From Escherichia coli (GTDB taxonomy: Bacteria; Pseudomonadota; Gammaproteobacteria; Enterobacterales; Enterobacteriaceae), in NCBI RefSeq assembly GCF_051903065.1, contig NZ_CP178438.1: a stretch of DNA of 64,000 bases, one strand, 5' to 3'. Under the pieces are notes generated by a model. That model saw only the letters and a list, made by a program, of their open reading frames with translations. It ran no database searches and had not been told where the DNA came from. The position numbers and the translations under genes were made by a program. This document shows, piece after piece, positions 39,472 through 44,205 of the stretch (positions are counted from its first letter, which is position 1; every line of letters starts with the position of its first letter).

Positions 39472-40512
39472 ATGCATCGTATAGACACGAAAACCGCGCA
39501 GAAGGATAAGTTCGGCGCGGGTAAGAACGGTTTTACCCGTGGTAACCCCCAGACCGGCACACCTGCCACCGATCTGGATGATGACTACTTTGACATGTTG
39601 CAGGAGGAGCTTTGCAGCGTTGTGGAGGCATCAGGTGCCAGCCTGGAGAAGGGGCGGCATGACCAGTTACTTACCGCACTTCGCGCGCTGCTGTTAAGCC
39701 GCAAGAATCCGTTTGGCGATATCAAATCGGATGGCACGGTGAAAACAGCTCTCGAAAACCTTGGTTTGGCTAATTACGCAGACAAAGCAAGTCTGGCGAA
39801 TCAGGAGTTTTCTGGTCCCGTATCATCTAAAGACTGCGTTACCGCAACATCGGCAGATGGGGTAACCCGCAAAGTATCGCTTAATGCCAGTACGGGTTTG
39901 AAGATAGTTATTTATGATGGCGGAACTTACAAGGGGGCAATAAACATCCCGGCAAAAGACGGGACAATGGCACTTGTATCTGATTTGGCTAATTTTGCTG
40001 ATAAATTGAGTGCTTCTGAGCAATATTTTAAAGGACCTGTTTCATCCGGGGATGGGCTCATAGCAAAATATGGCACCGCAAAAATAATTCTGTCAGCCCA
40101 AAACGGTCAGAGAATTGTTGTTTATACAAACGACACTTACCGTGGAGCTATTAATATTCCACTTCGTGACGGAACTATGGCGCTCCTGGATGATGTTACT
40201 AATGTTAGCGCAACGCTGCTGGGTATATCTCAGTCATGGCAGAACGTGAAAGCCAGCCGTAGTGCCGGGGTTACGTATACCAACTCAACAGGCAGGCCCA
40301 TTGCAGTTTCAATCGCCGGAATAATGGCAACACGTCAGAATGGAGTTCAGTTGTCACTTGCCGTTAATGGCACAGAGGCTTCAAGTTTTGCCGTGACTGA
40401 CAGCTCGTTTGACATCAGGGGTAACGTATTTGCGATTGTGCCACCAGGAGCAACTTACAAACTTACAGCAAATAACATTAATTCTATTTTGACCTGGTCG
40501 GAGCTTCGCTAA
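39472..40512 (+). CDS. tail fibre protein
   Basis: 346 aa; conserved tail-fibre N-terminus ([47 protein letters not shown]..) and internal ~60-aa repeats. Confidence 0.75.
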
Positions 40513-40889
40513 TGAATACGGTAATCAAAGAGCAAAAATTCTTTAAGGACTCGGCCGGTGTGATTTTTTGCATCGACATCATGGAAATGAATGCTGAGTC
40601 ATGGGGTGAAGAAGTACAGGCCGGATGGCAGGAAATTAGTGCCGATGAAGCGCTATTAATTGCTAATCCACCGCCTACAGAGGAACAGCTATTTGAACAG
40701 GTTAGGGCGCAGAAACAGGCCCTGATTTCCGAGGCGACTGCAATTATAGATCCACTTAAGGATGCACTGGATGGTGGCTATATCGACGATGCAGACAAAC
40801 CAAGACTGACTGAATGGCAAAAGTACCGCTATGAGGTGACGAAAGTTGATCCGGGAAAACCTGTGTGGCCACCGAAGCCTACAGAATAG
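40512..40889 (+). CDS. tail fibre assembly protein (short)
   Basis: 125 aa directly after the fibre gene with ATGA overlap. Confidence 0.6.
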   Translation: MNTVIKEQKFFKDSAGVIFCIDIMEMNAESWGEEVQAGWQEISADEALLIANPPPTEEQLFEQVRAQKQALISEATAIIDPLKDALDGGYIDDADKPRLTEWQKYRYEVTKVDPGKPVWPPKPTE

Positions 40890-40964
40890 GAACATTTTTT
40901 ATAACCATCAAAAATCTGGTGATATTTCGCCTCTTCTCCTGTTTTTACAACAGGAGAAGCACTC

Positions 40965-41528
40965 ATGATTTACGGGTATGTTCGTGTATCAACAAATCAT
41001 CAGGATACAGAGTTGCAACGTCTTGCACTTGAGTCAGCTGGCTGTGAGCGAATTTATGAAGAATATGCCAGTGGCAGAACAGCTAATCGCCCTGTGTTAA
41101 AGGAATTAATTACGGTGATGAAAAGTGGAGATGAGTTGATTGTCTGGAAGTTAGATCGGATAGGGAGAAATGTGCTGCATGCGCTATTTATGTTTCAAAA
41201 TCTGCACGAAAAAGGTGTTAATTTTCGGAGTATTACAGATGGCGTAGACCTGAAAACAGCAAGTGGTCGCTATAATTTCCGTAATATTCTTTCTGCTGCG
41301 CAGTATGAATCTGATTTGAATAGCGAGCGAACTTTAGCTGGTTTGGCTATTGCCAGATCCAAAGGCCGGATTGGTGGGCGTAGACCGAAGTTTAGCGACG
41401 AGCAGTGGCAACAGATGGGAGCGCTCATAGCGGCAGGGAAATCACGGCGTTATGTTGCACGTATCTATAACGTTGGGCTATCAACCCTATATAAACGATT
41501 TCCTGTTACTGGCATTCAAACGAAATAA
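40965..41528 (+). CDS. Pin/Gin/Hin-family serine DNA invertase
   Basis: 187 aa; MIYGYVRVSTNHQDTELQ.. with catalytic Ser in YVRVST and C-terminal HTH. Confidence 0.9.
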   Translation: MIYGYVRVSTNHQDTELQRLALESAGCERIYEEYASGRTANRPVLKELITVMKSGDELIVWKLDRIGRNVLHALFMFQNLHEKGVNFRSITDGVDLKTASGRYNFRNILSAAQYESDLNSERTLAGLAIARSKGRIGGRRPKFSDEQWQQMGALIAAGKSRRYVARIYNVGLSTLYKRFPVTGIQTK

Positions 41529-41671
41529 TTTAAAAGCAATTTAAAGAGTTATTTGTCTAATGTTGGAAGCCGCAGCCACGTCGTATGCAAGAACGTGCTG
41601 CGGCTGGCTGGCGAACTTTCGATAGTGCGAGTATTGAATGATTTCCAGCCGTTACCGATTTTACGTGTTAA

Positions 41672-41920
41672 TTAGTGAACAAACCACTCGTCAGCAGATT
41701 CCCAGGTATCTTTCAGAGTCTCCTGAACAAAAGTTTTTGCAGAATCCTTATCTGCGGTGCGTGTAACAGAAAGGCCATCGTTGCTGGTGGCTTTTACGAT
41801 CACCTCTACATCGTCATAACGTTTACTGATGCGTCGGGTTAATTCTTCCTTTAACGCATCCACAGCACCGGTTGGCATTTTAGTCATTTTTTCTTTGGCT
41901 ATGCAGATTTCAATACGCAT
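41672..41920 (-). CDS. DinI-family protein
   Basis: 82 aa; [11 protein letters not shown]...[10 protein letters not shown] matches the recalled DinI pattern (MRIEVTIAK...ETWESADDWFV). Confidence 0.85.
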
Positions 41921-41981: not shown

Positions 41982-43079
41982 TCAAGAGGCCTTATTTCTG
42001 CTCCTTTGGAGCTCTTCAAAACGATTATGTAAAGATTTCGGATACAGTTCGGTATATACCTGCCATAGCACGTTTAATGAACGATGCCCTGTAACCTGGG
42101 CGACTTCCTCAATACTAAAACCAGCCTCAAATAAGCGACTTGCCCCTTCTCTACGCAAATCATGGTATCGCAGATCTTTAATACCTAATTTGCTTCTTAC
42201 CCTCTGGAATCCCGCAGTAACAGAAGTGCTGTTATATGGAAAAATGAATTCTGATTTTTTGGGTTGTCGTTGGACGATATCCCAGGCTTCCCCAAGCAAG
42301 GCTACTTTCATATGGTTGCCTTCCTTTTTACGTGGATCTTTCCTGTCTCTTACGAGTATGGATTTTTGTTCCTGATCGAGATCCTCCCATCGTAATCGGC
42401 ATACTTCACCGATTCGCATACATGACCACACAGAAAATTTGAGGATATCAACGAACGGAATTTTTGAGCATTTATGTGTAGATCGTTGTTGAAGACCTTC
42501 AATGAGCATGTCCAGTTCATCAGATGCCGGTCTACGATTACGACGATTTGATTTACCAATTAAACCAAGTTTAAGTAGATATGGACGAGCGGCTTTTGCT
42601 GGGTTTGATGTGTAATTAATTCCATATACAGGTTTGGCAGCATCCAGAACACTGCCAAGATAACTAACATCGTGGCTAACTGTAGCTGGACCTGCACCAG
42701 CGTTGTTTCTTAGCCTGCAATGTTCAATTACGTCATTTTCTGTCAGTTCAGATAGTTTGAGCGCGGAGACGTCACTATCCATAAGCAGTTCCAGCACATA
42801 TCTTTTAGTACGGCCTGCTTTACCTCCGGCATTTGGGTCATTTAAATATTTGTGTAGTAAGTCACGGACTGTAAGTCCGTCAACTGCATTTGATGATGGA
42901 ATGCCATATAGATCTAATTCCATCACTTTCTGTGTGCCCCATGTTTTGGCATGAGCATGTTTAGGGAATGTTTTACTTTCCCTGTAAGTGATAACACCTT
43001 TTTCTTTGATAATCACATTACAGCGATAGCGTGGTGTGCCATCGGATTTTAGTCGTTTCTCTATGTTATAGTATGCCAT
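41982..43079 (-). CDS. tyrosine integrase (dusA-targeting type)
   Basis: 365 aa; C-terminal ..HDLRREGASRLFEAGFSIEEVAQVTGHRSLNVLWQVYTELY with R..H..R..Y-type catalytic residues; abuts the dusA 5' end. Confidence 0.9.
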   Translation of the reverse strand: MAYYNIEKRLKSDGTPRYRCNVIIKEKGVITYRESKTFPKHAHAKTWGTQKVMELDLYGIPSSNAVDGLTVRDLLHKYLNDPNAGGKAGRTKRYVLELLMDSDVSALKLSELTENDVIEHCRLRNNAGAGPATVSHDVSYLGSVLDAAKPVYGINYTSNPAKAARPYLLKLGLIGKSNRRNRRPASDELDMLIEGLQQRSTHKCSKIPFVDILKFSVWSCMRIGEVCRLRWEDLDQEQKSILVRDRKDPRKKEGNHMKVALLGEAWDIVQRQPKKSEFIFPYNSTSVTAGFQRVRSKLGIKDLRYHDLRREGASRLFEAGFSIEEVAQVTGHRSLNVLWQVYTELYPKSLHNRFEELQRSRNKAS

Positions 43080-43160: not shown

Positions 43161-43271
43161 TTCAAAAATGCACGATAATCATGAAACACAAAAAATTAAT
43201 CAAACCAGCGTGATGCCTGAAAAAACTGGTGTTTACTGGAATTCTCGGTTTAGCATTGCTCCTATGCTCGA
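43161..43271. repeat. attR-side dusA 5' sequence (imperfect direct repeat of 4751-4861)
   Basis: Alignment by eye; this copy is fused in frame to the dusA body. Confidence 0.7.
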
Positions 43272-44205
43272 CTGGACGGACAGACATTGCCGCTATTTCT
43301 TGCGTCTGCTTTCCCGCAATACGTTGCTGTATACCGAAATGGTGACTACAGGGGCGATTATTCACGGTAAAGGTGATTATCTGGCGTACAGTGAAGAAGA
43401 ACATCCGGTAGCGTTGCAACTGGGCGGTAGCGATCCGGCGGCGCTGGCGCAGTGTGCGAAGCTGGCAGAAGCGCGCGGATATGATGAGATCAACCTGAAT
43501 GTCGGCTGCCCGTCTGACCGGGTGCAGAACGGCATGTTTGGTGCGTGTCTGATGGGTAATGCGCAGCTGGTTGCCGACTGCGTGAAAGCGATGCGCGATG
43601 TGGTGTCGATTCCGGTGACGGTGAAAACGCGTATTGGCATCGATGATCAGGACAGCTATGAATTTCTCTGCGATTTCATCAACACCGTTTCCGGCAAAGG
43701 CGAGTGTGAGATGTTCATCATCCATGCACGTAAAGCCTGGCTTTCGGGGTTAAGCCCGAAAGAAAACCGTGAAATCCCGCCGCTCGATTATCCGCGTGTG
43801 TATCAACTGAAGCGTGACTTTCCGCATCTGACAATGTCCATTAACGGTGGCATCAAGTCGCTGGAAGAAGCTAAAGCGCATTTGCAACATATGGATGGCG
43901 TGATGGTCGGGCGCGAGGCGTATCAGAATCCGGGTATTCTGGCGGCGGTAGACCGGGAGATCTTTGGTTCCTCGGATACCGATGCCGATCCGGTTGCGGT
44001 AGTGCGCGCCATGTATCCGTACATTGAGCGTGAACTCAGCCAGGGGACGTATCTCGGCCATATTACCCGGCATATGCTGGGCTTGTTCCAGGGTATTCCT
44101 GGCGCGCGGCAGTGGCGGCGTTATTTAAGTGAAAATGCCCATAAAGCGGGTGCAGACATTAATGTGCTGGAACACGCGCTCAAACTGGTGGCGGATAAGC
44201 GTTAA
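43168..44205 (+). CDS. dusA: tRNA-dihydrouridine synthase A
   Basis: 345 aa; TIM-barrel Dus motifs (..[18 protein letters not shown].., ..NLNVGCPS..); conserved position next to pspG. Confidence 0.9.

What the first reader, a model, noticed from the sequence alone, without database searches (positions are those of the whole stretch)
40890..41528. Pin-family invertase with no visible invertible tail-fibre segment
In Mu, P1 and e14 the Gin/Cin/Pin invertase flips a segment carrying alternative tail-fibre C-termini and assembly genes. Here the invertase follows a single fibre plus assembly-protein pair with only ~75 bp between, and no inverted duplicate is present. The region 40890-40965 contains a weak hix/gix-like AT-rich half-site (TTTATAACCATCAAAAATC). 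The host-range switch may be locked by deletion, or the invertase may act on a site elsewhere.
Basis: partly seen in the sequence, partly recalled or inferred. Interest (0 to 1): 0.5.

Follow-up and report, generated by a model that had tools for sequence, protein, structure and literature searches.

The report
Single-cassette (locked) phage tail-fibre invertase switch
An intact prophage DNA invertase sits beside a tail-fibre region that holds one fibre-tip cassette instead of the usual two, so there is nothing to switch to; it is an ordinary variant of a well-known system.

Summary
Window 40965-41528 encodes an intact Gin/Pin-type serine invertase, 75 bp after a single fibre gene plus chaperone (tfa) gene, and there is no inverted duplicate.

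- A strong 26-bp crossover site lies inside the fibre gene (39749-39774, core TT). It is nearly identical to the left site of the e14 P segment.
- A hybrid site lies at 40879-40904. Its outer half and AA core match the canonical right site of relatives. Its inner half is the last tfa codons plus the stop codon.

Most relatives at the same dusA site carry the classical two-cassette invertible segment with paired sites. Natural inversion isoforms exist next to an invertase that is 186/187 identical.

Here the two sites bracket one 1.13-kb cassette. Inverting it would only truncate the fibre, and no flipped copy was found in any collection searched. The "tfa-stop" junction recurs in about 27 distinct phage contexts. 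Identical cassettes sit in unrelated backbones with breakpoints at both site cores, which supports Sandmeier's 1994 idea that these sites mediate cassette exchange.

Verdict: a locked, single-cassette member of a known system. The invertase could still act in trans, as PinQ does on e14.

The parts
39472..40512 (+). Tail-fibre gene (346 aa). Residues 1-97 are the constant part (e14 StfP / SfV-group type). Residues 98-346 are the variable receptor-binding tip.
   Evidence: ORF. The N-terminal 298 nt are 94-97% identical to SfI/SfII/SfIV/SfV fibre genes, and similarity ends at window 39769. Close tip homologues (66-100% identity) are few, about 18 proteins with total lengths of 261-422 aa.
39749..39774 (.). 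Left 26-bp crossover site: CTCTCGAAAACC TT GGTTTGGCTAAT (core TT at 39761-39762, inside codon 97).
   Evidence: The first 21 nt are identical to the e14 left site and to the left site of ETEC H10407. It is the only exact AAACCNNGGTTT in the window. The G+C break is here.
39763..40890 (+). Single host-range cassette (fibre tip plus tfa), 1128 bp between the two core dinucleotides.
   Evidence: Present in only 2 of 5426 complete E. coli genomes, in the same layout. A homologous cassette in L148 is 60-100% identical per 50-nt bin over about 1150 nt, and similarity ends at the left site.
40512..40889 (+). Tail-fibre assembly chaperone (tfa, 125 aa), C-terminus ...VWPPKPTE*.
   Evidence: Pfam Caudo_TAP, E 2.5e-15.
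40879..40904 (.). Right hybrid crossover site: CTACAGAATAGG AA CATTTTTTATAA. The inner half is the last tfa codons plus the TAG stop. The core AA is at 40891-40892. The outer half is canonical.
   Evidence: From the AA core rightwards the sequence is identical to the canonical right site of L005 (TTCTCCCAAACC AA CATTTTTTATAA...). The same 'ATAGG AA C.TTT' junction occurs in about 27 distinct contexts.
40933..40959 (+). 11-bp stem-loop that sequesters the invertase Shine-Dalgarno sequence (AGGAGAAG).
   Evidence: Inverted repeat I17. RNA fold -21.8 kcal/mol, z -6.3. Invariant across the invertase family. Annotated as IR3 in phi80.
40965..41528 (+). Din-family (Gin/Pin/Hin-type) serine DNA invertase, 187 aa, apparently intact.
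   Evidence: It is 186/187 identical to the invertases of H10407 and phage SKA5, 101/187 to PinE and 92/187 to Gin.
41672..41920 (-). DinI-family gene (context).
   Evidence: Pfam DinI, E 1e-19.
41982..43079 (-). Tyrosine integrase of the prophage, next to dusA (context).
   Evidence: Pfam Phage_integrase. The same layout is found in relatives at dusA.
4756..4862 (+). Copy of the dusA 5' end (83% identical to 43165-43271). It marks the far end of the roughly 38-kb prophage.
   Evidence: BLAST within the window.

Best explanation
This is the host-range module of an intact, roughly 38-kb prophage with a Mu-type tail, integrated at dusA. It is related to e14, the SfV group and phage SKA5. Its Gin/Pin-type serine invertase normally flips a segment bounded by two inverted 26-bp sites. 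One site lies in the fibre gene at the joint between the constant and variable parts. The other lies about 60 bp upstream of the invertase start.

In this copy the DNA between the sites holds one fibre-tip plus chaperone cassette instead of two convergent ones. The left site is complete. The right site keeps its AA core and its outer, invertase-proximal half, but its inner half is the end of tfa including the stop codon.

Such 'tfa-stop' sites mark one end of portable host-range cassettes. The same cassette can be found in unrelated phages with breakpoints at both core dinucleotides. The most likely history (inferred) is that recombination at the two sites replaced the resident two-cassette segment with a single imported cassette.

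The functional consequence is also inferred. The fibre is fixed in the expressed orientation. A flip would fuse codon 97 to ...P-I-L-stop and silence both genes. The invertase has no productive local substrate, but it remains able to act in trans on canonical segments elsewhere in the cell.
For: Shown directly:
- The invertase is intact and Gin-like. It is 186/187 identical to the invertases of relatives that carry canonical segments.
- For those relatives the same 1829-bp segment occurs in both orientations (L008 versus L022, 99.8% identical, inverted).
- 48 of 80 IMG/VR loci with this invertase family have a matching inverted left partner site (at most 3 mismatches), 1.2-3.2 kb away. Among the 40 best E. 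coli hits, 33 span 3.4-4.8 kb and 30 of those list two tfa genes; 7 are single-cassette length.
- Left site.
- Right site: the outer half, the core and the downstream sequence are identical to the canonical right site of L005, and divergence starts exactly at the core.
- The tfa-stop junction occurs in about 27 distinct contexts, 14 of them with no invertase downstream. The 12-bp outer half is conserved and information content falls to about 0 beyond it.
- L080 and L122 share a cassette that is 98-100% identical over 1102 bp. It is bounded by the left TT and right AA cores, and the flanks are unrelated: an invertase-bearing phage versus a P2/186-like phage.
- Relatives of the window's own cassette sit on four backbones with the same two boundaries.
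- No flipped junction was found in IMG/VR, GTDB genomes or JGI metagenomes, against about 25 in the expressed orientation in IMG/VR.

From the literature:
- Sandmeier's 1994 hypothesis, as cited in PMC8986868 and PMC4134206.
- Trans action of an orphan Pin (PMC12529663).
Against: - No experiment shows that the right hybrid site is inert. Its orientation (TT versus AA cores) is formally competent for inversion.
- The flipped-junction pattern was restrictive, and the window's own tfa end has one extra codon, so it does not fit that pattern.
- Only three genomes carry this exact cassette, so orientation statistics for it are weak.
- Sequence alone cannot separate cassette replacement from deletion.
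- Exchange at the conserved 8-13 nt of the sites could be microhomology-driven rather than invertase-catalysed.
- Two Fis sites (the recombinational enhancer) were not recognisable in the invertase gene with a crude scan.
- The invertase carries one private substitution, L75F.
Confidence: 0.7

Rival explanations
1. On/off phase switch. The left site and the hybrid right site are both functional, and the invertase flips the single 1.13-kb cassette. The phage population would then alternate between fibre-bearing particles and particles with a 100-aa fibre stub.
For: The two sites are in inverted orientation with complementary cores, TT and AA. The outer half of the right site matches the consensus. 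The conserved 'ATAGG' next to the core resembles the 'AAAGG' of functional outer halves. The tfa-stop site is kept as a 26-bp unit in many phages.
Against: No true flipped junction was found in three large collections, against about 25 in the expressed orientation in IMG/VR. The inner half matches the half-site consensus at only about 5 of 12 positions, and its conservation can be explained by the K-P-x-stop coding sequence. A fibre-less state has no obvious benefit.
Confidence: 0.1
2. Simple decay. An ancestral two-cassette segment lost its second cassette by a non-specific internal deletion, and the invertase is an orphan on its way to loss.
For: Decayed versions clearly exist in the family. 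L017/L056/L072 keep a ~95-bp spacer with a consensus-like inner half. phi80 keeps fibre pseudogene fragments next to pinL. L031/L084/L057 have invertases beside unrelated genes.
Against: The junction is at the core dinucleotide, not at a random point, and it is the same in about 27 distinct contexts. The cassette was never seen as one arm of a two-cassette segment in 5426 E. coli genomes. The invertase ORF is intact and nearly identical to active relatives.
Confidence: 0.12
3. The invertase's real substrate lies elsewhere in the host genome, for example an e14-type P segment or another prophage's fibre segment. In that case its position here is incidental to its current role.
For: The canonical sites of this invertase lineage (..AAACC TT GGTTTGGGAGAA / TTCTCCCAAACC AA..) have the same inner halves as the e14 P-segment sites. 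PinQ, an orphan invertase, inverts the e14 P segment in trans (PMC12529663). EC958 Phi4 inverts although its own invertase is truncated (PMC4134206).
Against: No second site above chance was found in the 64-kb window. The rest of the genome is not available. This reading is compatible with the best explanation rather than opposed to it.
Confidence: 0.3

Closest known systems
e14 P-segment / PinE system of E. coli K-12 (and Mu G/Gin, P1 C/Cin)
   Same: - Same gene order: gp48/YmfQ, fibre constant part, crossover site, variable tip, tfa, then invertase.
- The left site is identical to the e14 left site over 21 nt.
- The invertase is 54% identical to PinE and 49% to Gin, with the same fold-length alignment.
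- The right site lies just upstream of the invertase gene.
   Different: - Only one tip-plus-tfa cassette lies between the sites, with no inverted alternative.
- The inner half of the right site is the tfa stop region, not the inverted copy of the fibre motif.
- The invertase belongs to a separate sub-lineage with a conserved hairpin that occludes its Shine-Dalgarno sequence.
Canonical dusA-integrated relatives (ETEC H10407 prophage, phage SKA5)
   Same: The backbone is about 98% identical on both sides of the cassette. The invertase is 186/187 identical. DinI, integrase and the dusA junction are the same.
   Different: They carry two convergent cassettes between perfect inverted sites about 1.83-1.88 kb apart, and they occur in both orientations.
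Orphan Pin invertases next to a single stf-tfa pair (PinR of Rac, PinQ of Qin; pinL of phi80)
   Same: An invertase follows a single fibre/chaperone pair with no local invertible segment. This layout is recalled from my knowledge of K-12 and was not checked here. phi80 pinL belongs to the same invertase family (79% nucleotide identity) and has the same upstream hairpin. PinQ acts in trans (PMC12529663).
   Different: PinQ is much more distant (38% identical to PinE according to PMC12529663). phi80 keeps pseudogene relics of the alternative fibre. The window has a clean site-to-site cassette and an apparently complete prophage.
Crossover-site-bounded host-range segments (Sandmeier 1994 hypothesis; 'Mu-like inversion crossover site' annotated in phage 186 gene K)
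   Same: Invertase-type sites sit at the boundaries of the fibre segment that confers specificity, including in phages that have no invertase (PMC8986868 citing Sandmeier).
   Different: Here both boundaries can be mapped to the core dinucleotides, and the right boundary overlaps the tfa stop codon. I could not check whether that specific site has been described.

Membership tests
Din-family serine DNA invertases (Gin/Cin/Pin/Hin) | Small serine recombinase with an N-terminal catalytic domain (active-site Ser about residue 9-10 and the D-R-x-x-R motif) and a C-terminal helix-turn-helix domain. | tested here: met
   Pfam Resolvase plus HTH_7. Residues 1-181 align with Gin 3UJ3 at E 1e-56, with the Ser9 column and WKLDRxGR conserved.
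Din-family serine DNA invertases (Gin/Cin/Pin/Hin) | Two 26-bp crossover sites (two 12-bp half-sites around a 2-bp core) in inverted orientation, flanking the segment. | tested here: inconclusive
   The left site is complete (39749-39774). The right site has a core and a consensus outer half, but its inner half is the tfa stop region and matches the consensus at about 5 of 12 positions. Canonical relatives meet this feature fully.
Din-family serine DNA invertases (Gin/Cin/Pin/Hin) | Fis-dependent recombinational enhancer (two Fis sites) within the 5' part of the invertase gene. | tested here: inconclusive
   A crude Fis-consensus scan found no site in the first 260 nt of the window's gene, and it recovered the Gin sites only imperfectly. 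The scan is not a reliable test.
Din-family serine DNA invertases (Gin/Cin/Pin/Hin) | Inversion isoforms observed. | tested here: not met
   For this locus type, no flipped junction was found in IMG/VR, GTDB genomes or JGI metagenomes. The feature is met for canonical relatives with a 186/187-identical invertase (L008 versus L022).
Invertible tail-fibre host-range switch (Mu G, P1 C, e14 P type) | Two alternative fibre C-termini, each with a cognate chaperone, in opposite orientation between the sites. | tested here: not met
   Only one fibre tip and one tfa are present, and there is no inverted duplicate.
dusA-specific integrating prophages | Tyrosine integrase next to the dusA 5' end, with a displaced copy of the dusA 5' end at the other prophage end. 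| tested here: met
   Integrase at 41982-43079 and dusA at 43168-44205. 4756-4862 is 83% identical to 43165-43271. Relatives have the same layout.

The most novel reading that the evidence does not exclude
The site that overlaps the tfa stop codon is a genuine substrate of Din invertases. Together with the in-gene left site it would make the fibre-tip plus chaperone unit a mobile cassette. Invertases, supplied in cis or in trans, would swap this cassette between unrelated phages (Mu-like, P2/186-like and others) by double site-specific exchange. The invertase would then serve as a host-range cassette exchanger and not only as a flip switch. The window would show the product of such an exchange.
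Probability: 0.3. Interest if true: 0.6.

Novelty: new member of a known kind. Interest (0 to 1): 0.3.

Why it matters
For this locus the outcome is modest. It shows that an "orphan-looking" invertase is explained by a one-cassette version of a textbook system, and it corrects where the recombination sites are.

The broader pattern found on the way has more value. Cassettes are bounded at both ends by crossover-site cores, including a recurrent site fused to the chaperone's stop codon. Identical cassettes occur in unrelated phage backbones. This gives base-pair-level support to the thirty-year-old proposal that invertase sites drive horizontal exchange of phage host-range determinants, and it defines natural cassette boundaries that could guide fibre swapping in engineered phages.

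It also flags a PGAP annotation artefact: intact mosaic fibre genes are called "stfP pseudogene".

Tried and rejected
- Position-weight scan of the window for further crossover sites. Half-sites carry too little information: the top scores fall within the range of shuffled sequence, and the matrix was partly trained on the window-type site. It was used only to show that no second site stands out.
- Simple pattern AAACCNNGGTTT. The number of hits equals chance expectation. Only the comparative evidence makes 39756 meaningful.
- Search for the window cassette, and for the L002 and L004 cassettes, as one arm of a two-cassette segment in 5426 E. coli genomes. None was found, so a local deletion origin could not be documented.
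- Flipped-junction pattern scans. The hits were either chance matches in unrelated organisms (L105, L152-L154) or expressed-orientation sites with a GG-type outer half (L104, L155). None was a flipped isoform.
- Fis-site scan for the enhancer. Uninformative.
- Promoter and terminator scan of 40400-41700. Nothing above chance.
- The idea that 'TAGGCCATTCAATAT' at the convergent tfa ends of canonical segments is a relic site. Rejected, because it is the reverse strand of the conserved ...IEWPTP... coding sequence.
- NCBIfam. Only sub-threshold hits to other serine recombinases, so no added value.
- I could not locate the second matching place in the near-identical genome NZ_AP045789.1, so trans targets were not examined.

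Full report
**1. What is at the coordinates.**

Window 40965-41528 (+) is a 187-aa ORF with Pfam Resolvase (E 4e-36) and HTH_7 (E 7e-12) domains. It aligns over residues 1-181 with the solved Gin invertase (3UJ3, E 1e-56). Ser9 and the WKLDRxGR motif are in place.

Immediately upstream are one fibre ORF (39472-40512, 346 aa, no Pfam hit) and one Caudo_TAP chaperone ORF (40512-40889). The gap to the invertase is 75 bp. Further upstream are Mu-type baseplate genes (gp45-gp48). Downstream are a DinI gene, a tyrosine integrase and dusA.

A degenerate copy of the dusA 5' end at 4756-4862 marks the other prophage end, so the element is about 38 kb.

No long inverted duplication exists around the fibre genes.

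**2.

Left site:
- The fibre gene contains CTCTCGAAAACC TT GGTTTGGCTAAT at 39749-39774.
- Its first 21 nt are identical to the left crossover site of the e14 P segment and of ETEC H10407.
- It lies at codon 97, where G+C falls from about 0.55 to about 0.42-0.48.
- Similarity to the SfV-group fibre genes stops there, at window 39769.

Right site:
- Canonical relatives have the right site at a fixed distance upstream of the invertase start. Examples are TTCTCCCAAACC AA CCTTTCAAATAT in H10407 and TTCTCCCAAACC AA CATTTTTTATAA in L005.
- The window reads CTACAGAATAGG AA CATTTTTTATAA at 40879-40904.
- From the AA core (40891-40892) rightwards it is identical to L005. To the left it is the end of tfa, with the TAG stop at 40887-40889.
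- The rest of that string is leader sequence specific to one sub-lineage. Other relatives with the same invertase have a different sequence there.

**3. Relatives.**

- The same prophage family sits at dusA in many E. coli genomes. In the 40 best hits, 33 span 3.4-4.8 kb and 30 of those list two tfa genes. Seven are of single-cassette length, 2.8-3.05 kb. ETEC H10407 and the isolated phage SKA5 are canonical examples.
- Of 80 IMG/VR loci that encode this invertase family, 48 have an inverted partner site with at most 3 mismatches, 1.2-3.2 kb upstream.
- The 1829-bp segment of SKA5 (L008) occurs at 99.8% identity in the opposite orientation in L022. The lineage therefore inverts in nature. Its invertase differs from the window's by one residue (L75F).
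- The window's own cassette is rare. It is present in 2 of 5426 complete E. coli genomes, in the same layout.

**4. The tfa-stop junction is a recurrent, site-like element.**

- Other single-cassette loci (L002, L004, L006, L036, L041, L080, L099) have different cassettes. In all but one the tfa stop is followed by G-AA-C and the resident outer half-site; L099 reads TAA-G-AA-C.
- A pattern scan of IMG/VR gave about 27 distinct junctions of the form ...ATAGG AA C(C/G/A)TTT...(G/A)AA. Fourteen have no invertase downstream, and these include P2/186-like phages.
- The unforced positions of the 12-bp outer half are conserved (1.3-1.5 bits at +6, +10 and +12). Information content falls to about 0 beyond +14.
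- Homology breakpoints coincide with the core. L080 and L122 share a cassette that is 98-100% identical over exactly 1102 bp, between the left TT and right AA cores, with unrelated DNA on both sides. L111/L118 and L104/L113 show the same pattern at the right end.
- Relatives of the window's own cassette (tip 77-90% identical) sit on three other backbones. Two of them (L148, L151) have an invertase or resolvase gene after the tfa-stop site; L149/L150, from Citrobacter braakii, do not. All carry the ..ATAGG AA C.TTT.. right boundary, and L148 and L151 also have the ..TT GG.. left site; none was detected in L149/L150.
- This matches the hypothesis attributed to Sandmeier (1994) that invertase sites and site-like sequences bound host-range segments and mediate their exchange (cited in PMC8986868 and PMC4134206).
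- The GenBank record of phage 186 already annotates a 'Mu-like inversion crossover site' in its fibre gene, although I know of no invertase in 186.

**5. Does the single cassette flip?**

The geometry allows it, because the cores are TT and AA in inverted orientation. A flip would give ...E-N-L-P-I-L-stop, a 100-aa stub, and would reverse tfa (derived).

A pattern for the flipped left junction found no true case in IMG/VR, in 100,044 species-representative genomes or in JGI metagenomes. About 25 relevant copies in the expressed orientation were found in IMG/VR.

Two limits apply. The pattern is restrictive, and the window's own tfa end does not fit it. The conclusion 'locked on' is therefore well supported but not proven.

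**6. Mechanism, with what is shown and what is inferred.**

Shown:
- The invertase is intact.
- The left site is complete.
- The right site is a hybrid whose exchange point is at the core.
- Relatives invert.
- Portable cassettes have both boundaries at site cores.
- No flipped forms were found.

Inferred:
- The resident two-cassette segment was replaced by a single imported cassette through recombination at the two sites. Whether this was invertase-catalysed or used the sites as microhomology cannot be told from sequence.
- The fibre is now monomorphic.
- The invertase is kept either because the event is recent or because it works in trans. The inner halves of the e14 P-segment sites are identical to the canonical sites of this lineage. 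The orphan PinQ inverts e14 in trans (PMC12529663).
- A stable hairpin (40933-40959, -21.8 kcal/mol) occludes the invertase ribosome-binding site and is invariant in the family. This suggests low, controlled expression.

**7. Comparison and novelty.**

The locus works like the e14 Pin, Mu Gin and P1 Cin systems and belongs to the same invertase family. It fails the defining feature of an invertible host-range switch, which is two alternative cassettes.

Single fibre-chaperone pairs followed by a Pin-type gene are already known. Examples are PinR and PinQ of K-12 (layout from my own knowledge) and phi80 pinL with relic fragments. I therefore rate it a new member of a known kind, with low to moderate interest.

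The most novel reading not excluded is that the tfa-stop site is a true invertase substrate and that these enzymes exchange host-range cassettes between phages. I give this a probability of about 0.3.

Noticed in passing
window 40933-40959: An 11-bp perfect stem-loop (CTTCTCCTGTT / AACAGGAGAAG) buries the invertase Shine-Dalgarno sequence (-21.8 kcal/mol, z -6.3). It is invariant in all relatives and is annotated only as 'IR3' in phi80. It probably acts as a translational throttle on the invertase.
   Followed up: partly
window 4756-4862 and 43165-43271: A 107-nt, 83%-identical duplicate of the dusA 5' end marks the two ends of a roughly 38.4-kb prophage integrated in dusA.
   Followed up: partly
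L114, L118, L122, L125 (P2/186-like phages); L091, L098, L103, L112: The 26-bp 'tfa-stop' crossover-like site (..ATAGG AA CCTTTGAAAGAA) is conserved directly after the chaperone gene in phages that have no invertase gene downstream. It is followed at once by unrelated sequence, often a terminator.
   Followed up: partly
L118, around the tfa stop: Tandem duplication of the site: AGGAACCTTTGAAAGT AGGAACCTTTGAAAGAA.
   Followed up: no
L151 4044-7044: A relative of the window cassette is followed by the tfa-stop site, a terminator and a resolvase-family gene. Downstream of that recombinase lies a second set: a 234-aa ORF, a tfa and an inverted tfa. This is an unusual order.
   Followed up: no
L003 (NZ_AP045789.1) 2072-2380; L002 2073-2369: PGAP annotates the intact mosaic fibre ORFs as 'stfP pseudogene, missing C-terminus' and leaves the variable part unannotated. 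This is an annotation artefact caused by the cassette boundary.
   Followed up: partly
window 40891-40930: The invertase leader is itself mosaic. 40891-40923 matches the L005-type leader exactly. From 40924 on it matches the H10407 type. The otherwise 99.6%-identical genome NZ_AP045789.1 continues with the L005 type (GGTGATGCT...).
   Followed up: no
window 41187-41189 (codon 75 of the invertase): Private substitution L75F relative to the invertases of H10407, SKA5, L002 and L004. The residue is not conserved in Gin or PinE. Any effect is unknown.
   Followed up: no
L017, L056, L072 (about 95 bp upstream of the right core): Other single-cassette relatives keep a ~95-bp spacer that ends in a consensus-like inner half-site (CTGTTCGAAACG AA). 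These look like internal deletions of the second cassette, so there are two routes to a one-cassette state.
   Followed up: no
L104 and L155: Another invertase lineage (start MAVIGY...) lies behind a tfa-stop site with a perfect consensus outer half, GGTTTTTGGAAA. In L104 the first codons read MVVIGYGNRRRKEPL-stop, so that copy may be disrupted.
   Followed up: no
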